From Dehalococcoidia bacterium (GTDB taxonomy: Bacteria; Chloroflexota; Dehalococcoidia; DSTF01; RBG-16-68-14), in assembly GCA_040882355.1 (NCBI GenBank), contig JBBEBM010000072.1, positions 1-61,872 on the forward strand: DNA of 61,872 nt, written 5' to 3'. This document shows, piece after piece, positions 53,687-60,531 of this stretch (the stretch's first letter is position 1; the number at the start of each line of letters is the position of its first letter). Under the pieces are notes generated by a model. The model had not been told where the DNA came from. It saw nothing but the letters and a program-made list of their open reading frames with translations, and ran no database searches. The position numbers were made by a program, and so were the translations under genes.

Positions 53687-54550
53687 TCACCCGCCCAGGA
53701 AGCCCACGATCTCCGCGTTCACGCGCTCCGGTGCCTCGCGGTGCATGAAGTGCCCGCAGCCCTCGACCTTCTTCAGCGTGTGGTCCGTGAAGAACTGGCC
53801 CAGGTTGTCGGTCCACTCGAAGCGCAAGATCGGGTCCATGTCGCTCCACAGGATCAGCGTCGGCGTCTTCACGATGGGGTCCGGCTGCGGCTGGCCAGCC
53901 GAGCGCAACGCCGCGCGATAGCAGTTGAAGCCGCCGCGCAGCGCACCCGGCTGCGAGTACGCCTCGACGAACTCCGCGACCTCCTCGTCCGGGAAGACGT
54001 CCGTGTCGTGCGACCAGTGGCGAAGGAAGTGCCCCAGGTACGTCTCGGTCGAGGCGCGCGTAGCGCCGACGACGTCCTCCGCCCACGGCTGCTGGTGGTG
54101 GATCATGTACCAGCTCTCGAAGATCTGCGGCATCTCAAACCAGCGGCCGCCGATGCCCGGGTACGGTGGGTTGAAGAGCACGAGCCGCTCCAGCATCTCC
54201 GGGTAGCTGCGCGCGAAGCGCTGCGTCCACATCGCTCCGAAGTCGTGCCCGACCATGCTCACCCGCTCGAACCCCAGCGCCCGAACGAGCGCCGCCAGGT
54301 CGTCGGCCATTACGCCGTCCGTGTAGCCCTGCTCCGGCGGCAGGTCCGGCTTGGCGGAGTACGCGAAGCCGCGCATGTCCGGCACGATCACGTCGAAGCG
54401 TTCCGCCAGCGGCATGATGTTCTTGTTCCACTCGAACCAGAAGCCCGGCCAGCCGTGCACCAGCACGACCGGCTTCCCCGCGCCATGCCGCACGTAGTGC
54501 AGCCGGACGCCGTTCACCTCAACGAACTGGTGGTTCCAGGCCTCAGTCAC
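53687..54550 (-). CDS. alpha/beta hydrolase (epoxide hydrolase/dehalogenase-like)
   Basis: HGWP, PDMRG, GHDFG (Asp nucleophile), GHF. Confidence 0.9.
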   Translation of the reverse strand: MTEAWNHQFVEVNGVRLHYVRHGAGKPVVLVHGWPGFWFEWNKNIMPLAERFDVIVPDMRGFAYSAKPDLPPEQGYTDGVMADDLAALVRALGFERVSMVGHDFGAMWTQRFARSYPEMLERLVLFNPPYPGIGGRWFEMPQIFESWYMIHHQQPWAEDVVGATRASTETYLGHFLRHWSHDTDVFPDEEVAEFVEAYSQPGALRGGFNCYRAALRSAGQPQPDPIVKTPTLILWSDMDPILRFEWTDNLGQFFTDHTLKKVEGCGHFMHREAPERVNAEIVGFLGG

Positions 54551-54553
54551 CGT

Positions 54554-55282
54554 CTACCTCCTTCGAACGCTCGCCTCCCGGGCGGCCTGACGCTCCCGCC
54601 TCGACCCGAGCACGTCGATCGCTGCAACCAGACAGCCGGCGCCGTCCGGCCGCTCGTACGACAGCACCCGCGGCTGGATACGATAGGCGCTCAGCGCGCC
54701 CATGAGCACCGCCGTCTGCGCGACGGCGTCCTCGGCGGCTGAGCGGCGGAACGTTGCGTCTACATTCGTAAGCCACTTCACGTCCCACTCGTCGATCGCC
54801 CGGCGGTACTGGCGATCGAACAGCCGCGCCAGCCGCGCGTCCGCCGTGCCAGCGAGCGTAGCCGTACAGACCAGCGCCGTCCGCCACTCGTCGCCGGCCA
54901 GCGCCCGGCCGAGGGCTCGCCCGAAGTCGAGATGTTCGCGCGGCGAAAGCGACGACACGCCAATCGACAAGGCGTCGGCGTCCCCGAGCGCGTCGACGAA
55001 CGGGGCGCCCAGAACCGATGACCGCGAGATCGCGAGATTGAAGGGGATCGCTTCCCGACCAACCTCGTCCTTGAGACGCGCCACGATCGCAGCCCAGCGC
55101 TCGGCGTCACCCGTCGCGACCTGGATCGCGCGCGGCAACACGGCGCCCTGCCGGGCGATCAGCACCGCGGCGTCCGGCTCGTACATCCGCAGCTCCGCCG
55201 CGACGCGATCGAGCGCCTCACGCGTGAGCGCGCCGTCATCGGGCAGCGCAGGCGGGCAGATACAGGCGTACACGACGGGCAT
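54554..55282 (-). CDS. degenerate LigB/MEMO-fold protein
   Basis: HLDFGRALG, LFD..Y, LMGAL, VLSYE.P.G.G patterns; usual metal-binding His residues not seen; start reset to MPVVY after TATACT. Confidence 0.55.
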   Translation of the reverse strand: MPVVYACICPPALPDDGALTREALDRVAAELRMYEPDAAVLIARQGAVLPRAIQVATGDAERWAAIVARLKDEVGREAIPFNLAISRSSVLGAPFVDALGDADALSIGVSSLSPREHLDFGRALGRALAGDEWRTALVCTATLAGTADARLARLFDRQYRRAIDEWDVKWLTNVDATFRRSAAEDAVAQTAVLMGALSAYRIQPRVLSYERPDGAGCLVAAIDVLGSRRERQAAREASVRRR

Positions 55283-55337
55283 CGCGCACCAGTATAGCCT
55301 GTCGCATCCAGCAGGGTCGGCCGGCCACGTGAGGCGT

Positions 55338-55347
55338 NNNNNNNNNN
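55338..55347. other. assembly gap (10 N)
   Basis: Run of n in the sequence; true length unknown. Confidence 1.
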
Positions 55348-55440
55348 GACGGCCGCGCGACCACCAACGCCGGCGCCATCGGCCCCACCGCCGCCTACCC
55401 CGACGGCGCCTGGGAGCGCGACTCGTACGAGGCGCCGTAG
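55348..55440 (+). CDS. possible 3' end of a gene truncated by the gap
   Basis: DGRATTNAGAIGPTAAYPDGAWERDSYEAP* with nearly all G/C third positions. Confidence 0.4.
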   Translation, partial: DGRATTNAGAIGPTAAYPDGAWERDSYEAP

Positions 55441-55479
55441 GGGCGCCCATCTGGGCGCCCTGGACGGCCGCGGCCGTCG
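55437..55479 (+). repeat. GTAG-type REP with double hairpin (inverted partner at 58506-58549)
   Basis: GTAGGGGCGCCCATCTGGGCGCCCTGGACGGCCGCGGCCGTCG vs reverse complement GTAGGGGCGCGCATCTGCGTGCCCTAGACGGCCGGAGGCCGTCG. Confidence 0.8.
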
Positions 55480-55509
55480 CAACCGGACGCACCGCCAGGA
55501 AACCGTTCA

Positions 55510-55867
55510 GACGTTTCATTGACCAGTCCGTTTGGCAAAATCGCTCTTGTCAGCGGACGGCCAGCGGACGGCCTCTGAAGCCAGGTGACGCCCCTGCGCC
55601 GGGCTGTGAATCTGAACGCGATGTTTGATTGATCCCGAGGCCGGTGACGCCCTGCGACAAGCAGGACGGCGGCTCGGCAGTATCGTCAGTCTCGGGCAAA
55701 CCACCTCGATCCTCCTCGGTCGCGCGAACCCTTCGCTTCGCTCGAGGGCAAGCCCAGCGCCAGAACACTGGACGGCCCGTGCCCCTTCGGCAAGCTCTGG
55801 ACAAGCTTCGCCGGATTGTCGAGGTTAGGGTAGGGCCGCGTCGGGAGAGCGCGGAGGGGGCGGTGGC
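55510..55867 (-). repeat. ~360-bp dispersed element, copy B
   Basis: Colinear with 254-663 in inverted orientation; internal 11-bp tandem duplication AGCGGACGGCC. Confidence 0.8.
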
Positions 55868-56061
55868 GTGGAGGGAGGGCGGAAGGAGGGCCGGCGCGCG
55901 TGTGGAGGCGGAAGGCGGGATCGCGAGTAGGAAGAGGCCGGCGAAGCTCAGAGAACCACGGCAATCGCCGGATTTGGCGCTTCAGACCCGAGGCTCATTC
56001 AGCTTCTTTGAGAGCTCATCGGAAGCCGATCTGTGGAACCCGACTCGTGAACCGTTGCACG

Positions 56062-56406
56062 TCATAGCGGCACGACCTCGCGCAAGCGGGCTACCATCTC
56101 TCGAAACTCGTAGGGCGTCAATTCCCCGACCTTCTCAATCACCCTGGTCCACTTGAGCGTCCAAAACCACGGGACTACCTGGGATGGGCCATTTAGCCCA
56201 GCATGCCTCAGGTCTTTGATGGCATACACTCCGAGGATTGGTTCGTGGAGAATGGCGCCGCTCGCTATCAGGACGAGCACTCCATGATCCTTGCCGATGT
56301 TGTAGGCGCGTTCACTGAGCACGACGGCGTAGCGTCTCTTTGACCGTTCTGGCGGATCAATGCGGGGAGCGTCAAGCCGGACTACATCGCCCGGGCTATA
56401 GGTCAT
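56062..56406 (-). CDS. PemK/MazF-family toxin
   Basis: PGDVV........SKRRYAVVLS...YN, AGL..PS, IEKVGEL. Confidence 0.82.
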   Translation of the reverse strand: MTYSPGDVVRLDAPRIDPPERSKRRYAVVLSERAYNIGKDHGVLVLIASGAILHEPILGVYAIKDLRHAGLNGPSQVVPWFWTLKWTRVIEKVGELTPYEFREMVARLREVVPL

Positions 56407-56689
56407 CGCCCCTGCCAAGCCCATGCTCGGCTTCCCAATCTTCCAAATCCTCCAGGGACGCTATCCACCAGTCATCATCATGCTCGATAGACGATGCGGA
56501 AATTGCGTCGCCCCCGGGCTTCGTACGCGTCACGATCACCAGCGGATGAAGGACAGCCGACTGGTCAATCCGTATCGTCATGAACGGCGTCACGTCGATT
56601 AGCTGAGTTGCGCTTGCCAAGCCGGCCGCTGTCATACCAACTCTGTTGATTCTCCGCCTATCGCTAGCGGTGCCTGCTTCCACATCCAT
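56396..56689 (-). CDS. small protein with acidic Trp-rich tail, putative antitoxin
   Basis: SD GGAG; overlaps toxin start by 11 nt; C-terminal HDDDWWIASLEDLEDWE. Confidence 0.6.
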   Translation of the reverse strand: MDVEAGTASDRRRINRVGMTAAGLASATQLIDVTPFMTIRIDQSAVLHPLVIVTRTKPGGDAISASSIEHDDDWWIASLEDLEDWEAEHGLGRGDDL

Positions 56690-56702
56690 TAGACAACTCC
56701 AT

Positions 56703-57731
56703 TCACAATGTGTCGCTGGGGAGCCAACCCTCGAATGACGCTCTCTCTTGGATCGCTACGGTCGGCACAGGGAGCCCTGGCTGTTGCACTTGTATTCTCT
56801 GAATGTTTTTCGTTGTTTGAAACACATGGGTCAGATCAGTCGTTTCGATTACCGCCCGAGGAAACGTTCCCACCGTTTGCTGCTCCGCACCCAGGAATCC
56901 GTCAGCGTTATAGGGCGTGCCAAGTTCCAGAAGCGCCGAATATTCGCTGAACAGGGCCTTTACCTTGGCCTCAATCTCTGGCGTGGACTCAATCACCTTT
57001 AGCTTGAGCGCATTCTGTGCTTCAGATCTGCCGATCAAGTAGTCGTGCGATCCTAGTTCGCGGGTCAGTCGTGAGACTATTCGGTCGCGCTCGTCCTTGT
57101 GTTCCTCGCCATCCATATGAAAGGCCAGCAAGCGATCTGCGAGGCTGACGATCTGTTCTCGGGATCGATAGACTGCGCCCAGCGCCAGTGGGTGGACCTG
57201 CGCAGAGAGCCGATCAAAAACGGTCAGAAGTGAGCGTTCCTCCTTTAGCGCAGCTTCCCTCCTGGCGAGATCGAGAAAGCCCACTACGTCCTCCACGCTG
57301 ATGGGAACGACCTGGGCTTGCCCCAGCTGGTTCGGTGTCTCTACTTTCGGGCCGAGAGCAGAATTCACGGAAGGATCAATAGGACTGAGTTGACCTAGCC
57401 GCGTCATGATGATTTCGTTAGCCGCCAGAGTGAACAGGGTTCCGGCACTTAGGGCTCGATGTGGAATCAAGACCCCTAATGCATCACAGTATTCGCGGAC
57501 AAGATTGGCCAATCCCCATGCTGCGAGCGTGTGCCCGCCAGCTGTGTAGAGGAGTACGTCTATCTTCGGCACCTCCCCGATTCTCTCTAGGTGCTCAAAG
57601 AAGATGGCGTGCGCGTCCGAGGCGATGATGGTCGGATGGTTTGGGCGGTCGCCCCAAACGGCAGCCAGGAGCCGCGACCCTCGCAGCGCCTCGATTTCTC
57701 GAATGAGATTGAGTCTATCTTCGCGTGGCAT
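56703..57731 (-). CDS. SDH_sah-family ClpP/crotonase-fold serine protease
   Basis: IDVLLYT.GG, ALSAGTL...AANEIIM, LSPIDP, SHDYLI...EA. Confidence 0.85.
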   Translation of the reverse strand: MPREDRLNLIREIEALRGSRLLAAVWGDRPNHPTIIASDAHAIFFEHLERIGEVPKIDVLLYTAGGHTLAAWGLANLVREYCDALGVLIPHRALSAGTLFTLAANEIIMTRLGQLSPIDPSVNSALGPKVETPNQLGQAQVVPISVEDVVGFLDLARREAALKEERSLLTVFDRLSAQVHPLALGAVYRSREQIVSLADRLLAFHMDGEEHKDERDRIVSRLTRELGSHDYLIGRSEAQNALKLKVIESTPEIEAKVKALFSEYSALLELGTPYNADGFLGAEQQTVGTFPRAVIETTDLTHVFQTTKNIQRIQVQQPGLPVPTVAIQERASFEGWLPSDTL

Positions 57732-57860
57732 AGGAGGCTATATTCTTATCGGATGGCCGCGGGCATGTCAAAATCGATCAGATCACTGATCCATTATAAC
57801 AGGGCGCAGCTGGGATCTGACAAGGGGAAAACACTGCTTCAGAGCTCCTGCTTGGTCTAT

Positions 57861-57979
57861 CTAGACCTCCGGCGGCTGGCGCGACTCCCCCGCCGGAGGC
57901 CGGCAGGTACCTCGCCAGGAGGAAGACGGCGCCGACGAGCGCGGCGATCGGTAGCCGGGCGAGCGCGGGCTGGACGGTG
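57861..57979 (-). pseudogene. diverged remnant of the 3' half of the adjacent 79-aa gene
   Basis: TVQPALARLPIAALVGAVFLLAR..ESRQPPEV* vs TVHPALALLPIVALVGAVFLLARWESRKPPEA*; 19-nt frameshifting insertion. Confidence 0.75.
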
Positions 57980-57980
57980 T

Positions 57981-58017
57981 CCCTCACCCCTGCCCCTCTC
58001 CCAAAGGGCGAGGGGAA
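57981..58017. repeat. CCCTCACCCC...CTCTCCCAAAGGGCGAGGGG palindromic repeat
   Basis: Hairpin CCCCTCTCCC-aaa-GGGCGAGGGG preceded by CCCTCACCCC; a widespread intergenic repeat type. Confidence 0.65.
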
Positions 58018-58026
58018 AGTCTCTCT

Positions 58027-58266
58027 TCACGCCTCCGGCGGCTTGCGCGACTCCCATCGCGCCAGCAGGAAGACGGCGCCCACGAGGGCGACGATCGGTA
58101 GCAGGGCGAGGGCCGGGTGCACTGTGAGGAGCCAGAACGACGCGCCAAGCACGCCCAGCAGGCCGAAGAGGGCGAGCAGCGGCCACATGATGACGGCGAA
58201 GGTGGCACGGGTGAGCACCCAGACGTCGCGGCAGCCGGGGCGGGCTTCGAGGGGCGGTTCGTACAT
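58027..58266 (-). CDS. small two-TM membrane protein (79 aa)
   Basis: MYEPP..RPGCRD followed by two hydrophobic helices; TGcTACCCT -10 just upstream. Confidence 0.75.
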   Translation of the reverse strand: MYEPPLEARPGCRDVWVLTRATFAVIMWPLLALFGLLGVLGASFWLLTVHPALALLPIVALVGAVFLLARWESRKPPEA

Positions 58267-58321
58267 GGTGGGCGTAGGGTAGCAGAGCGATGGGCGGAAG
58301 CGAGGGGGCGGGCACGTTGTT

Positions 58322-58361
58322 AGGGTGGTGTGGGTGTGAGGGTGGTGTGGGTGTGAGGGTG
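58322..58361. repeat. 17-bp tandem repeat AGGGTGGTGTGGGTGTG x2.3
   Basis: Read directly. Confidence 0.85.
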
Positions 58362-58505
58362 CTGCAAGATCCCTCGCTTCGCTCAGGATGACAGAGGGAG
58401 GGGCAGCACCTAACGTGGGCATCGCCCGAGGAGTAGGGCGGCGAGATGCGTCGCTGCGCTCGGCATGACACAAGGTGCGCCGGCCACAGGGGCTTCGTCG
58501 CGTGA

Positions 58506-58549
58506 CGACGGCCTCCGGCCGTCTAGGGCACGCAGATGCGCGCCCCTAC
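58506..58549 (-). repeat. GTAG-type REP, inverted partner of 55437-55479
   Basis: Sequence match with compensatory stem changes. Confidence 0.8.
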
Positions 58550-58678
58550 AATGGCCTCCGCACATGATGGGCCCAGAGGATGAAGGGATGGGTCGTCGCG
58601 AGAGTGGCGCTGGTGGCGTCCTAAAGGTCGCCGCTACCGATGCACGAGCGCAAGGACAAGACAGGCCAGAGACGCCGG

Positions 58679-59374
58679 TTACCCCTGGAACAGGTCCCTG
58701 AAGAGGGCGCCCGATGGCACGACGGGCAGGGCCTGGTGGTAGAGCTCCTCGTGGGTGGTGAACTTGGACAGCATCGCAAAGAACTCGCGGGAGTCTTGCT
58801 GGCTGCTGTGGCAGGCCAGCGCCGCCAGCTTCACGTCGAGGTAGTCGGTCACGTCAATGCGGTGGGTCGGCTCGCGCTCCGGCCCCACGATCTCCAACTG
58901 GTCGGCGAACGGGCCGTCGATGGCCACCCAGAGCACCCGCACGGGCCGCGGGCCGCCTGCGGCGGATTCCGCCGCGCGCATCGCCGCCTTGTGCCCGGCG
59001 ATGTGGTCGACGTGGCGGGTGAGGCCGGTCGGGCCGAACGTGATGATCGTGTCGGCGCCCGTCTCGACCAGCTTGCGGGACACGTGGCCGGCCACCTCGT
59101 CGAGCGGGACCTGGTCGAGCGCGCCGTCCATGTAGTCGAGCAGCTCGACGCTCGCCGCGCCGATCACGCGCGCCGAGGCCCGCGTCTCGTACTCGCGCAG
59201 CAGACCGAGCGCCTCGGGCGAGTCGACGCCGTCGGACATCGTGCCGATCTGGCCCTTCGTGAGCGTCAGCAGGTGGGACGCGACGCCCTGCTCGGCGTAG
59301 CGGGCAACGGTGCCGGCGCAGCCGAACGCCTCGTCGTCAGGGTGCGGCGCCACGATGAGGATGGCGGGCATCAC
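58679..59374 (-). CDS. PIG-L/LmbE family deacetylase
   Basis: PHPDDE, LT.G, HVDH, KLAALACHSSQ. Confidence 0.9.
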   Translation of the reverse strand: MMPAILIVAPHPDDEAFGCAGTVARYAEQGVASHLLTLTKGQIGTMSDGVDSPEALGLLREYETRASARVIGAASVELLDYMDGALDQVPLDEVAGHVSRKLVETGADTIITFGPTGLTRHVDHIAGHKAAMRAAESAAGGPRPVRVLWVAIDGPFADQLEIVGPEREPTHRIDVTDYLDVKLAALACHSSQQDSREFFAMLSKFTTHEELYHQALPVVPSGALFRDLFQG

Positions 59375-59508: not shown

Positions 59509-60531
59509 TCAGTCCGGATCAGGCAGCTCGGTGGGGCGCACGTTGAAGGTGAGCGACTCGGCCGAGCGCACGACGTGCACAACGAGCGGCTGGCCGACGG
59601 GGTGGCGGCCGAGCGCCTGCTGCAGGTCGTCCGGCGAGGCGATCGCGTCGTCGCCCACGCGGACGATCAGGTCGCCGGAACGGATGCCGGCGTTCGACGC
59701 CGCGGTGTCGGGCATGACTTCGGTCACCTGGACGGCGGTCGCGACGCCCTCCCGGAGCGCGACCTTGCGGTCGAGCGCCACCGGCTGCGCGGAGACGCCG
59801 AGGTAGGCGCGCCGCACGCGGCCGTCGCGCATGAGCTGCGAGGCGACCCAGAGGGCGGTGTTCGCCGGGATGGCGAAGCAGATGCCCTGCGAGCCGGCGA
59901 TGATCGCCGTGTTCACGCCGATCACGCGCCCCCGCGAGTCGACGAGCGGGCCGCCGGAGTTGCCCGGGTTGAGGGCGGCGTCGGTCTGGATGATGTTCTC
60001 GATCACGCGGCCCGTCTCGGTGCGCAGTGTGCGACCGAGCGCGCTGACGACACCAGCGGTGACCGTCGCCTGAAAGCCGAGCGGGTTGCCGATGGCGACG
60101 ACGAGCTGGCCCACGCGCAGCGCGGACGAGTCGCCGAGCTCCGCCGCGGGCAGGCCCGACTCGGGCACACGCACGACGGCGAGGTCGCTGTGGGGGTCGT
60201 CGCCGACGACGCGCGCCGCGAGCGTGCGGCCGTCCTGCAGGCGCACCTCGATGCGCTCGGCCTTGCGAACGACGTGGCTGTTTGTGAGGACGTAGCCATC
60301 CTGCGCGATGAGCACACCGCTGCCGGCGCCGCGCAGCTTGGGCAGGCCGCGCCGCTGGAGGCGGGCCGGCGCCTTGCGCGCCATGCCGACGCTGACGACG
60401 GCAGGCCCGACGCGCTCGACAGCGCCCGTCACGGCCTGCGAGTACGCATCGAAGGCTTCGGTGTCGACGGCGCGGACGTCCGCCGTGCCGTTCTGGTTGT
60501 CTACGGTCGCGAGGACCTGTTGGAGTCTCAT
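59509..60531 (-). CDS. HtrA/DegP-like serine protease with PDZ domain, no signal peptide
   Basis: TNSHVV, SDLAV, IQTDAALNPGNSGG; PDZ YLGV...PDTAA...GI..GD. Confidence 0.92.
   Translation of the reverse strand: MRLQQVLATVDNQNGTADVRAVDTEAFDAYSQAVTGAVERVGPAVVSVGMARKAPARLQRRGLPKLRGAGSGVLIAQDGYVLTNSHVVRKAERIEVRLQDGRTLAARVVGDDPHSDLAVVRVPESGLPAAELGDSSALRVGQLVVAIGNPLGFQATVTAGVVSALGRTLRTETGRVIENIIQTDAALNPGNSGGPLVDSRGRVIGVNTAIIAGSQGICFAIPANTALWVASQLMRDGRVRRAYLGVSAQPVALDRKVALREGVATAVQVTEVMPDTAASNAGIRSGDLIVRVGDDAIASPDDLQQALGRHPVGQPLVVHVVRSAESLTFNVRPTELPDPD

What the first reader, a model, noticed from the sequence alone, without database searches (positions are those of the whole stretch)
56062..57823. 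Candidate protease-gated toxin module: ClpP-fold SDH protease, acidic small protein, PemK/MazF
Seen: three tightly packed co-oriented genes (13-nt gap, 11-nt overlap) that are visibly more A/T-rich than the host, with their own TGtTATAAT promoter (57801-57793) and a GATCA-N6-TGATC dyad. The protease keeps the Ser (ALSAGT) and His (SHDY) motifs. The middle protein has no recognisable AbrB/RHH DNA-binding head but has an acidic Trp-rich tail like the toxin-binding tails of MazE-type antitoxins. Known: MazF-family RNases are released when host Clp/Lon degrade the antitoxin. Inference: this module carries a dedicated protease that cleaves the antitoxin on a trigger such as phage infection, giving a tripartite abortive-infection or stress system. 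I do not recognise it as a named system.
Basis: partly seen in the sequence, partly recalled or inferred. Interest (0 to 1): 0.78.

Follow-up and report, generated by a model that had tools for sequence, protein, structure and literature searches.

The report
Protease-linked toxin-antitoxin module with swappable toxin
A small imported three-gene cassette pairs a ClpP-like protease and a tagged small protein with a MazF-type toxin, and the same protease-plus-tag pair sits in front of at least five other toxin families in bacteria and archaea, which points to an undescribed kind of toxin-antitoxin system that brings its own protease.

Summary
Three co-oriented minus-strand genes lie at 56062-57731: a 342-aa SDH/ClpP-fold protease, a 97-aa protein of no known family, and PemK/MazF. 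They form a 54-58% GC islet in 67-73% GC DNA, behind a unique TGTTATAAT box and dyad.

The gene order is conserved elsewhere. In 91 of 138 usable homologous loci from bacteria and archaea, the protease is followed directly by a small ORF. That ORF carries one N-terminal motif, T-x-G-L-x-S-A-x-Q-L-V-D-x-T.

The third gene changes: Doc 29, PemK 15, an unknown 103-aa family 9, ParE 3-4, PIN 1 and HicA 1. The C-terminal tail of the small protein changes with it (322 same-toxin against 5 cross-toxin tail matches). Ser95, Asp119 and His229 of the protease are invariant in 126 sequences.

My best reading is a tripartite toxin-antitoxin system. The middle protein would be a two-part linker, with a tag for the cognate protease and a toxin-specific neutralising tail.

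That the protease degrades this protein is inferred, not shown. Toxin-less protease/tag pairs under purifying selection (22 of 81 loci) argue that the pair also works alone.

PADLOC had no match and seven literature searches found no description. I call it a new variant of a known kind.

The parts
57793..57801 (-). extended -10 box TGTTATAAT upstream of the operon
   Evidence: Only TGNTATAAT in the window, expected 0.05. Not conserved in 15 relatives, though 3 of them have their own TGNTANNNT box.
57776..57791 (.). dyad GATCA-N6-TGATC just downstream of the -10 box
   Evidence: Unique in the window, expected 0.07. Not found upstream of 15 related modules. No DNA-binding domain was detected in the module, so its binder is unknown.
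57742..57771 (-). second promoter-like site TTGACA-18-AAGAAT, ending 10 nt before the protease ATG
   Evidence: 10 of 12 matches, 1 site found against 0.7 expected, so it is weak on its own. It would give a nearly leaderless mRNA. No Shine-Dalgarno sequence precedes the ATG.
56703..57731 (-). gene 1: 342-aa SDH-type, ClpP-fold serine protease (S95, D119, H229)
   Evidence: PF01972 52.7 bits, above the cut-off. AF2 model pLDDT 93.7. Foldseek best matches are ClpP, probability 1.00, TM about 0.6 on the target. S95, D119 and H229 are invariant in 126 sequences. Single copy in the genome.
56396..56689 (-). gene 2: 97-aa linker/antitoxin-like protein of no known family
   Evidence: No Pfam, NCBIfam, PADLOC or PHROGs match. 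GGAG lies 7 nt before the ATG. Homologous ORFs follow the protease in 91 of 138 loci.
56588..56635 (-). N-terminal tag of gene 2 (residues 19-34, MTAAGLASATQLIDVT; G23, S26 and Q29 near-invariant)
   Evidence: Alignment of 81 sequences. The motif HMM hits 2 of 5932 control ORFs of the same loci, and both are in fact the ORF next to the protease. The profile finds 177 representative clusters in 1.84 billion proteins.
56399..56548 (-). variable C-terminal tail of gene 2 (residues 48-97, acidic, three Trp)
   Evidence: Tails cluster by toxin family, 322 same-toxin against 5 cross-toxin BLAST hits. Close relatives with near-identical N-termini carry three different tail types.
56062..56406 (-). 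gene 3: PemK/MazF-family toxin (114 aa from the MTYSP start; an alternative ATG at 56424 gives 120 aa)
   Evidence: PF02452 29.3 bits, above the cut-off, over the whole profile. PHROG MazF-like growth inhibitor. A profile of 15 module PemKs hits B. subtilis EndoA/MazF structures at E 3.5e-28. Only PemK in the genome.

Best explanation
The three genes are one functional unit of a previously undescribed tripartite toxin-antitoxin family.

The parts:
- Gene 3 (PemK/MazF) is the growth-arresting RNase.
- Gene 2 is a two-part linker. Its variable acidic C-terminal tail binds and neutralises the toxin. Its conserved N-terminal tag (T-x-G-L-x-S-A-x-Q-L-V-D-x-T plus a following strand) is the recognition element for the cognate protease.
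- Gene 1 is an ATP-independent ClpP-fold Ser-Asp-His protease.

Proposed mechanism: the protease takes the tagged, probably unfolded gene-2 protein as its dedicated substrate. It therefore sets that protein's lifetime without relying on host Lon or ClpXP. While the operon is expressed, fresh linker keeps both toxin and protease occupied.

Shown here:
- the conserved gene order
- the tag and its exclusive adjacency to this protease
- co-variation of tail and toxin
- repeated toxin swapping
- the invariant catalytic triad
- horizontal origin of the cassette

Inferred:
- protease-tag binding and cleavage
- tail-toxin binding
- the direction of control
- any trigger

I put about 0.85 on the three genes being one unit with gene 2 as the linker. 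I put about 0.5 on the protease degrading gene 2 to release the toxin.
For: (1) Conserved order. There are 147 homologous loci: 62 genome, 80 metagenome (the best 80 of 431 relatives) and 5 viral. Of these, 144 have a whole protease ORF and 138 have at least 250 nt downstream. In 89 of the 138, a motif-bearing small ORF starts -80 to +200 nt from the protease stop. Two more loci (L053, L113) qualify once my mis-set protease ends are corrected.

(2) Specificity. The motif HMM hits only those 2 of 5932 other ORFs of 160 aa or less in the same loci.

(3) Third gene in 88 motif loci:
- Fic/Doc 29
- PemK 15
- unknown 103-aa family 9
- ParE 3, plus 1 below cut-off
- HicA 1
- PIN 1
- contig end 7
- none or unknown 22

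(4) Tail and toxin go together. Tail-tail BLAST hits were 322 between loci with the same toxin label and 5 between different labels. Median tail length is 49-75 aa with a toxin and 20 aa without.

(5) Toxin swapping on the protease tree. The quick IQ-TREE of 72 rows needs 12 label changes (minimum possible 6; shuffled mean 39.6). The window's own clade (SH-aLRT 100) holds PemK 7, Doc 3 and ParE 2.

(6) Near-identical N-termini carry three tail types among the closest relatives of gene 2.

(7) S95, D119 and H229 are invariant in 126 proteases, on a ClpP fold.

(8) A protease only 37% identical, in a same-order genome, is again followed by a small ORF and a PIN gene.

(9) No DNA-binding domain was found in any of 56 gene-2 candidates. 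Control of the antitoxin is therefore more likely post-translational.

(10) Precedent for a neighbouring protease that cleaves an antitoxin: MaOC1 of Microcystis (PMC7935541, abstract read).
Against: - No result shows that the protease binds or cuts gene 2, or that gene 2 neutralises PemK.
- Of the 81 motif loci with 330 nt or more downstream, 22 have no recognisable toxin. Their small ORFs stay open. dN/dS was 0.22-0.44 in the 4 of 8 pairs where dS could be computed, and 0.04-0.08 for the protease in 3 of 8. The pair therefore seems to work without a toxin to release.
- The window's PemK is divergent. It is 16-27% identical to the other 14 module PemKs. The residue after the conserved Arg is Tyr where 90% or more have Pro. 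It has no PDB hit as a single sequence and no homologue other than itself in the word-indexed search. Its activity is therefore not assured.
- The host has its own ClpP at 247.7 bits, so a private protease is not needed here for lack of one.
- The dyad has no candidate binder in the module and is not conserved.
Confidence: 0.5

Rival explanations
1. The protease is itself the constant effector (toxin), and the N-terminal module of gene 2 is its pseudo-substrate inhibitor. Gene 2 would then be a double antitoxin holding both the protease and PemK. Host proteases, or a trigger that removes gene 2, would unleash both.
For: Toxin-less protease/small-ORF pairs are common (22 of 81 loci). They are kept under purifying selection at saturated synonymous divergence, as expected if the two genes are a complete toxin-antitoxin pair. 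More distant protease subfamilies also carry their own small downstream ORF families without toxins, in 7 and 4 loci. The catalytic triad is invariant.
Against: A ClpP-fold protease with no unfoldase partner has no shown way to damage folded cell proteins. Nothing tested here shows the protease to be toxic. This reading does not explain why a second toxin was recruited in 59 of 81 loci and swapped repeatedly. It also overlaps with the best explanation if the inhibitor is slowly consumed.
Confidence: 0.2
2. Gene 2 is a proteolytic adaptor of the type VI (SocAB-like) kind. Its tail binds the toxin and its tag docks on the protease, so that the toxin, not the antitoxin, is degraded. The protease would then be part of the neutralising arm.
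For: The two-part build of gene 2 (constant protease-side tag, variable toxin-side tail) is what an adaptor would look like. SocA is described as such an adaptor for ClpXP in the Panacea paper (PMC8832971, passages read).
Against: No ATPase or unfoldase is encoded in the module. No upstream gene is conserved either: the largest cluster of upstream ORFs held 3 of 120 loci. MazF, Doc, ParE and PIN are compact folded proteins that an ATP-independent ClpP-fold protease should not unfold (general knowledge, not tested). Toxin-less pairs make no sense in this model.
Confidence: 0.1
3. The protease is a maturation factor. It trims or processes gene 2 into its active form, so it is needed for neutralisation, by analogy with the chaperone of toxin-antitoxin-chaperone systems.
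For: Strict linkage of protease and tag and an invariant triad would also fit an obligatory processing step.
Against: The tag can start at residue 4 of the small protein (for example L124 and L007), leaving no leader to remove. No conserved cleavage-type boundary is seen between tag and tail. A module whose antitoxin needs activation by a co-encoded enzyme has no obvious advantage.
Confidence: 0.08
4. The adjacency is incidental. An ordinary two-gene PemK module landed next to an unrelated housekeeping or prophage (prohead-type) ClpP-like protease.
For: NCBIfam and PHROGs give faint matches to head-maturation proteases: 21.4 bits against a cut-off of 120, and E 0.006. Five distant homologues lie on viral contigs.
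Against: The order recurs in 91 of 138 loci across two domains, with a protease-specific tag. No capsid or other conserved neighbour is present. The best PHROG (phrog_11747, E 5.7e-36) has no known function. The whole 1.8-kb islet shares one composition.
Confidence: 0.03

Closest known systems
Toxin-antitoxin-chaperone (TAC) systems (SecB-like chaperone plus antitoxin with a chaperone-addiction extension). Recalled, and named as a tripartite type in PMC8832971.
   Same: Three genes. A portable extension on the antitoxin ties it to a dedicated proteostasis partner encoded in the operon. The extension is combined with antitoxins of several toxin families.
   Different: The partner here is a catalytically intact ClpP-fold protease, not a chaperone. 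The extension is N-terminal. No SecB-like gene is present. The expected effect of the partner on the antitoxin is the opposite: destruction rather than protection.
COG2856 (ImmA/IrrE-type Zn protease)-Xre-RelE/PIN three-component systems predicted by Makarova et al. 2009 (PMC2701414, passages read)
   Same: A protease gene genomically linked to an antitoxin-like protein and to swappable toxins. It was proposed to cleave the antitoxin or repressor.
   Different: That protease is a HEXXH metalloprotease and the partner an Xre HTH repressor. Here the protease has a Ser-Asp-His triad on a ClpP fold, and the partner has no detectable DNA-binding domain.
MaOC1 orthocaspase next to a ParE/ParD-like pair in Microcystis aeruginosa (PMC7935541, abstract and outline read)
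   Same: A protease gene sits directly beside a toxin-antitoxin pair. The protease cleaves the free antitoxin, and co-expression stops growth.
   Different: It is a cysteine protease of the caspase fold, described as a single case. No conserved protease-specific tag and no toxin swapping were reported in the abstract.
Panacea (DUF4065, PanA) hyperpromiscuous antitoxin domain (PMC8832971, passages read)
   Same: One constant antitoxin-side module is found with many unrelated toxin families, with frequent partner exchange inside clades.
   Different: In PanA the constant domain itself is the neutraliser, and no dedicated protease is linked. Here the constant part is a short tag tied to a protease and the variable tail is the presumed neutraliser.
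Canonical MazEF/PemIK type II modules
   Same: A PemK/MazF-fold toxin preceded by, and overlapping, a small acidic partner gene.
   Different: No AbrB, RHH or other DNA-binding head on the partner. A third, obligatorily linked protease gene. Antitoxin turnover is presumably not left to Lon or ClpXP.
NfeD/STOPP protease-stomatin operons (ClpP-fold protease with a dedicated neighbour substrate; recalled)
   Same: A ClpP-fold, ATP-independent serine protease is encoded next to its own specific substrate. The window protease has a weak NfeD1b_N match (20.5 bits, below the cut-off of 40).
   Different: There are no membrane segments, no stomatin gene, and a different catalytic arrangement. The resemblance is one of logic only.

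Membership tests
PemK/MazF toxin family (PF02452) | Significant match to the family profile over its whole length | tested here: met
   29.3 bits against a gathering score of 23.1, profile positions 2-108 of 109. 28.6 bits in the whole-genome scan. PHROG MazF-like, E 1.9e-8.
PemK/MazF toxin family (PF02452) | Catalytic Arg in the beta1-beta2 loop and Thr/Ser after strand 3 (residue roles recalled from MazF/EndoA literature) | tested here: inconclusive
   R25 is invariant in 15 module PemKs including the window's. The next residue is Tyr in the window, where Pro is present in 90% or more. The window has Ser (LIAS) at the position of the TT/ST motif. Activity cannot be read from this.
PemK/MazF toxin family (PF02452) | Sequence-specific endoribonuclease activity, toxicity on expression | not testable with these tools
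   Needs expression and cleavage assays.
SDH-type ClpP-like serine proteinase (PF01972 / NF047768) | Match to the family profile above the curated threshold | tested here: inconclusive
   Pfam: 52.7 bits against 31.3, but only residues 53-124 against profile positions 90-161 of 286. NCBIfam equivalog: 63.6 bits against a cut-off of 250, not met. It is a divergent subfamily, not an equivalog.
SDH-type ClpP-like serine proteinase (PF01972 / NF047768) | ClpP fold | tested here: met
   AF2 model pLDDT 93.7, pTM 0.90. Foldseek top hits are all ClpP: E 7e-5, probability 1.00, TM 0.56-0.67 on the target. An extra three-stranded C-terminal sheet (residues 285-338) is not in ClpP.
SDH-type ClpP-like serine proteinase (PF01972 / NF047768) | Ser, Asp, His catalytic residues in that order (family description recalled) | tested here: met
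   S95, D119 and H229 are invariant in 126 sequences. Their closeness in space was not measured.
Type II toxin-antitoxin system | Small partner gene immediately upstream of, and translationally coupled to, the toxin gene | tested here: met
   11-nt overlap in the window. In related loci gene 3 starts -70 to +21 nt from the gene-2 stop in most cases.
Type II toxin-antitoxin system | Protein antitoxin binds and neutralises the toxin | not tested
   Supported only indirectly by tail/toxin co-variation.
Type II toxin-antitoxin system | Antitoxin carries a DNA-binding domain and autoregulates (usual, not universal) | tested here: not met
   No Pfam domain in the window protein. None of 56 gene-2 candidates has a DNA-binding domain.
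Toxin-antitoxin-chaperone (TAC) | SecB-like chaperone as third gene | tested here: not met
   The third partner is a ClpP-fold protease. No SecB match was reported.
COG2856-Xre three-component systems | HEXXH Zn-metalloprotease and Xre HTH partner | tested here: not met
   Pfam finds neither. The protease is a serine enzyme.
Known anti-phage defence systems (PADLOC-DB 2.0) | Match of any of the three proteins to a system model | tested here: not met
   0 families for all three proteins at E up to 1.

The most novel reading that the evidence does not exclude
The protease and its N-terminal tag form a self-contained, host-independent proteolytic timer. The protease is a stable effector that slowly consumes its own co-encoded inhibitor or substrate. 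The two-gene form would already be a complete addiction or defence module, of a type in which the toxin degrades its antitoxin. Any toxin can be plugged in by fusing a neutralising tail to the tag. That would explain the cross-domain spread and the six or more toxin families. The tag would also be a natural portable degron with a matching private protease.
Probability: 0.3. Interest if true: 0.9.

Novelty: new variant of a known kind. Interest (0 to 1): 0.8.

Why it matters
How antitoxins are removed is the least settled part of toxin-antitoxin biology. The usual answer is host Lon or Clp, and that answer is disputed. A family that carries its own protease and a recognisable tag makes the question directly testable with three small genes.

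The family shows modular evolution: one constant protease-tag pair with at least five known toxin families plus one unknown family. It occurs in both bacteria and archaea. About half of the 31 motif-bearing genome loci are archaeal by record title.

If the tag proves to be a sufficient degron for its protease, the pair would be a compact orthogonal protein-degradation tool.

The 103-aa third-gene family may be a new toxin.

Tried and rejected
- Predicted complex of the protease (126-row alignment) with residues 1-62 of the middle protein (81-row alignment). No answer: score 0.10 and 0.00 against a mark of 0.32, and controls were not run. This says nothing for or against binding.
- Protein atlas look-up of the middle protein: no usable hit.
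- The window PemK alone against PDB sequences: 0 hits at E up to 10. A 15-row profile was needed.
- Protease profile against PDB sequences: nothing below E 0.05.
- Rfam on 55300-58700: no match at E up to 0.1.
- Expression: no RNA holder was listed. Four DNA runs of one sediment study hold the stretch, one of which may be the source.
- Laying their contigs showed identical sequence and one 3263-nt contig bridging 55356-58618. The only joints had sides of 20-38 letters, so no trustworthy empty-site form was seen.
- The 34-nt inverted repeat 55437-55470 / 58516-58549 was considered as the ends of a mobile cassette. I rejected this because the core occurs 20 times in the genome and so is REP-like.
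- A conserved operator was sought upstream of 15 related modules. None was found.
- A conserved fourth gene upstream was sought. None was found: the largest cluster held 3 of 120 loci.
- Protease-gene 2 fusions were sought among long homologues. P0043, P0044 and P0062 are only long N-terminal calls. P0086 has its N-terminus replaced by a transposase-type zinc ribbon.
- An empty site was sought in relatives. The flanks are conserved but not syntenic in 30 relatives, so no insertion point could be defined.
- The careful tree did not finish in 300 s, so the quick tree was used.
- Earlier findings of this scan: nothing by words or by sequence.
- The idea that archaea need the module because they lack ClpP was dropped. 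The control panel shows CLP_protease matches in two archaeal control genomes.
Full report
**1. What is in the window**

Three genes lie head to tail on the minus strand between 56062 and 57731:
- a 342-aa protein, 56703-57731
- a 97-aa protein, 56396-56689, starting 13 nt after the first stop, with GGAG 7 nt before its ATG
- a 114-120-aa protein, 56062-56406 or 56062-56424, overlapping the second gene by 11 nt if the MTYSP start is used

GC content is 0.54-0.58 across these genes and 0.67-0.73 on both sides.

TGTTATAAT (57801-57793) and the dyad GATCA-N6-TGATC (57776-57791) are each unique in the 61.9-kb window. Their expected counts are 0.05 and 0.07. A second promoter-like site, TTGACA-18-AAGAAT, ends 10 nt before the first ATG.

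Family matches:
- Gene 1 matches SDH_protease at 52.7 bits, above the cut-off.
- Gene 3 matches PemK_toxin at 29.3 bits, above the cut-off and over the whole profile.
- Gene 2 matches nothing in Pfam, NCBIfam, PADLOC or PHROGs.
- None of the three proteins matches a PADLOC defence model.

**2. The cassette is foreign and sporadic**

The window is a whole contig of a 3.33-Mb, 94%-complete genome. The protease and the PemK are each single-copy in it.

With the protease as query at E 1e-10 or better, I found no homologue in 0 of 15 genomes of the same family. I found distant ones (37-38% identity) in 2 of 45 other genomes of the same order. In an even sample of the phylum, 10 of 400 other genomes had a match at E 1e-40 or better, and only 3 of those were 51% identical or more.

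The DNA of the cassette is not matched in 30 relatives. The flanking genes are matched but are not syntenic.

The cassette lies among REP-like repeats. In four DNA runs of one sediment study it is present with identical sequence, and one contig bridges both junctions. One of those runs may be the source of the assembly.

**3. The order is conserved but the toxin is not**

The protease has 983 relatives at E 0.001 or better among the 8000 candidates scored. I fetched 147 loci: 62 from species-representative genomes, the best 80 of 431 metagenome relatives, and 5 from viral contigs.

A whole protease ORF was found in 144 loci, and 138 have at least 250 nt downstream.

The small ORFs that follow the protease share an N-terminal motif with consensus TTSGLTSASQLVDTTSSVVFSVDNTTSA. 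G23, S26 and Q29 of the window protein are invariant or nearly so in 81 sequences.

An HMM of the motif finds such an ORF starting -80 to +200 nt from the protease stop in 89 of 138 loci. Two more (L053, L113) qualify once my mis-set protease ends are corrected. Among 5932 other ORFs of 160 aa or less in the same loci, the HMM hits only those two. Several of the remaining loci show degenerate versions by eye. More distant protease subfamilies carry other small-ORF families, in 7 and 4 loci.

The third gene in the 88 motif loci tallied:

| Third gene | Loci |
|---|---|
| Fic/Doc | 29 |
| PemK | 15 |
| unknown 102-107-aa family | 9 |
| ParE | 3, plus 1 below cut-off |
| HicA | 1 |
| PIN | 1 |
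| contig ends too soon | 7 |
| no recognisable toxin | 22 |

Outside this set:
- L026 has PIN and L016 has Doc.
- L045 has a PemK domain in a 215-aa ORF just after its protease.
- A 37%-identical protease in a same-order genome is followed by a small ORF and a PIN gene.

Some loci are near-duplicates (for example L022/L023, L066/L067, L070/L071), so the counts are of loci, not of independent events.

**4. The middle protein is built of two parts**

After the tag, the sequence depends on the toxin. Doc-linked proteins end in a helix-like ...N..IL.ELAKY. One PemK group ends in IWDN..DD(I/V)FD. ParE-linked and 103-aa-family-linked proteins have their own tails.

BLAST of tails alone gave 322 hits between loci with the same toxin label and 5 between different labels. 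All 5 were between PemK-linked and 103-aa-family-linked tails, groups that are interleaved in one protease clade. Median tail length is 49-75 aa with a toxin and 20 aa without.

The closest relatives of the window's middle protein are 57-64% identical to it. Their first 55 residues are nearly the same, but they carry three tail types. One of these is the window's own ...LEDLEDWEAEHG... type, in 2 of 7 relatives.

On a quick maximum-likelihood tree of 72 distinct proteases, the toxin labels need 12 changes. The minimum possible is 6 and the shuffled mean is 39.6, with 0 of 200 shuffles as low. The window's own clade (SH-aLRT 100) contains PemK 7, Doc 3 and ParE 2. Before building the tree I dropped unlabelled contig-end loci, identical sequences, and ORFs outside 300-400 aa.

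The toxin and its matching tail are therefore exchanged often, while protease and tag stay together.

**5. The protease**

The AF2 model is confident (pLDDT 93.7, pTM 0.90). Its best structural matches are all ClpP subunits (Foldseek probability 1.00, target-normalised TM 0.56-0.67). An added C-terminal three-stranded sheet is not in ClpP.

By sequence, no solved structure matches significantly. S95, D119 and H229 are invariant in 126 sequences. No ATPase gene or any other conserved neighbour accompanies the protease.

**6. The toxin in the window**

A profile of 15 module PemKs matches B. subtilis EndoA/MazF structures at E 3.5e-28.

The window's copy is an outlier. It is 16-27% identical to the other 14, even though its protease is 75% identical to that of L065. 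The conserved Arg is kept, but the following Pro is replaced by Tyr. It has no hit as a single sequence in the PDB or in the word-indexed protein search apart from itself.

It looks intact, but I cannot vouch for its activity.

**7. How it most likely works**

The data show a constant protease/tag pair joined to a variable tail/toxin pair through one small protein.

My preferred reading is this. The tail neutralises the toxin. The tag makes the small protein the private substrate of the protease. The protease therefore sets the antitoxin's lifetime independently of host proteases. When synthesis of the linker stops, or the protease is stimulated, PemK is released.

Points that fit this reading:
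- the invariant triad
- the absence of a DNA-binding domain in gene 2
- the lack of any unfoldase, since an unfolded small protein is a feasible substrate and a folded toxin is not
- spread across both domains of life
- the MaOC1 precedent

The main difficulty is the toxin-less pairs, 22 of the 81 loci with room downstream. These form clades. Their small ORFs stay open with dN/dS of 0.22-0.44, computable in 4 of 8 pairs, while synonymous sites are saturated. The pair therefore has a function of its own.

A version that accommodates this is that the small protein is a consumable inhibitor or substrate of a protease that is itself harmful when unoccupied. I give this as the novel case. Its stricter form, in which the protease does not degrade the small protein, is rival 1.

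The adaptor and maturation models are less likely, for the reasons given under the rivals. Nothing here speaks to a trigger.

Defence genes lie within 4 kb in roughly 9 of 30 genome loci: restriction-modification, BREX BrxA, SspH, Cas1, PD-T4-6, MzaA and NsnB/AriA-like. This count has no background control and is only a hint that the module lives in variable or defence islands, as many toxin-antitoxin modules do.

**8. Comparison with what is known, and novelty**

Tripartite toxin-antitoxin systems are known:
- TAC systems, with a chaperone
- paaR-paaA-parE
- the COG2856-Xre-toxin systems predicted in PMC2701414

One protease next to a toxin-antitoxin pair has been shown to cleave the antitoxin (MaOC1). 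Promiscuous antitoxin modules are also known (Panacea).

I found no description of an SDH/ClpP-fold protease linked to toxin-antitoxin genes or of the tag:
- Searches for PF01972, SDH_sah and 'serine dehydrogenase proteinase' returned 6 papers, none relevant by title and abstract start.
- Combinations of SDH, ClpP-like, S49, DUF114, tripartite, dedicated protease, three-gene, antitoxin and Doc returned nothing pertinent.
- The only 'ClpP-like serine protease' passage I checked concerns an unrelated outer-membrane operon.

These searches cover only the open library, and supplementary tables were not opened.

I therefore rate the finding as a new variant of a known kind, namely tripartite toxin-antitoxin systems. 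The new features are a private ClpP-fold protease and a portable protease tag.

Noticed in passing
L005:5332-5643, L007:1953-2264, L008:4542-4853, L012:5353-5676 and 7 more (alignment A6): An unknown 102-107-aa family occupies the toxin position in 9 motif loci, plus L004 and L019. It always follows linkers with long tails of 75-83 aa. It has no Pfam match. Its AF2 model (pLDDT 86) has a ferredoxin-like beta-alpha-beta-beta-alpha-beta fold, closest to CutA1/PII-like proteins and a phage SAM lyase (TM about 0.6). It may be a new toxin.
   Followed up: partly
window 55437-55470 and 58516-58549: A 34-nt inverted repeat (88% complementary) brackets the cassette. Its 24-nt core occurs 20 times in the genome (0 for the reversed control), so it is a REP-like palindromic element and not the ends of this cassette.
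   Followed up: yes
window 57866-57979 versus 58032-58126: The 3' end of the 148-aa ORF 58027-58473 (no Pfam match) is duplicated at 85-96% identity just upstream of the module promoter. A short multi-copy repeat lies between the two copies. This may be a scar of rearrangement at the insertion site.
   Followed up: partly
window about 57981-58020 and 58364-58404: Short stretches of about 35-40 nt match at 85-95% in many contigs of many related genomes, so they belong to a family-wide dispersed repeat.
   Followed up: no
window about 55338-55355: A masked or N stretch interrupts ORF 54554-55519 (XXXX in the translations). Public contigs break at 55337 and 55356.
   Followed up: no
L048, L049, L051, L052, L055-L057; L040-L043: More distant protease subfamilies (29-44% identity) are each followed by their own small-ORF family with a different conserved N-terminal pattern and no recognised toxin. 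Protease and small protein seem to co-vary.
   Followed up: partly
L022 and L023: An archaeal MAG (Methanobacteriota) and a Spirochaetota MAG carry identical linker and Doc genes. This is either very recent transfer or a binning artefact.
   Followed up: no
protein P0086: A 426-aa relative has the first 60 or so residues of the protease replaced by a transposase-type zinc-ribbon region (PF12760). It is probably a module disrupted by an insertion sequence.
   Followed up: no
L005, L007, L010, L011, L020, L028, L029, L033, L039 (flanks): Strong PADLOC matches lie within 4 kb of the module: type I, II and IIG restriction-modification, MzaA, PD-T4-6 kinase, BrxA, SspH, Cas1/HerA and NsnB/AriA-like ATPase. 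TnpB/Cas12f-like genes lie in L015 and L037. No background control was done.
   Followed up: partly
window 59509-60531, 58679-59374, 53687-54550: Ordinary host genes flank the variable stretch: an HtrA-type trypsin-PDZ protease, a PIG-L/LmbE-type deacetylase and an alpha/beta hydrolase.
   Followed up: yes
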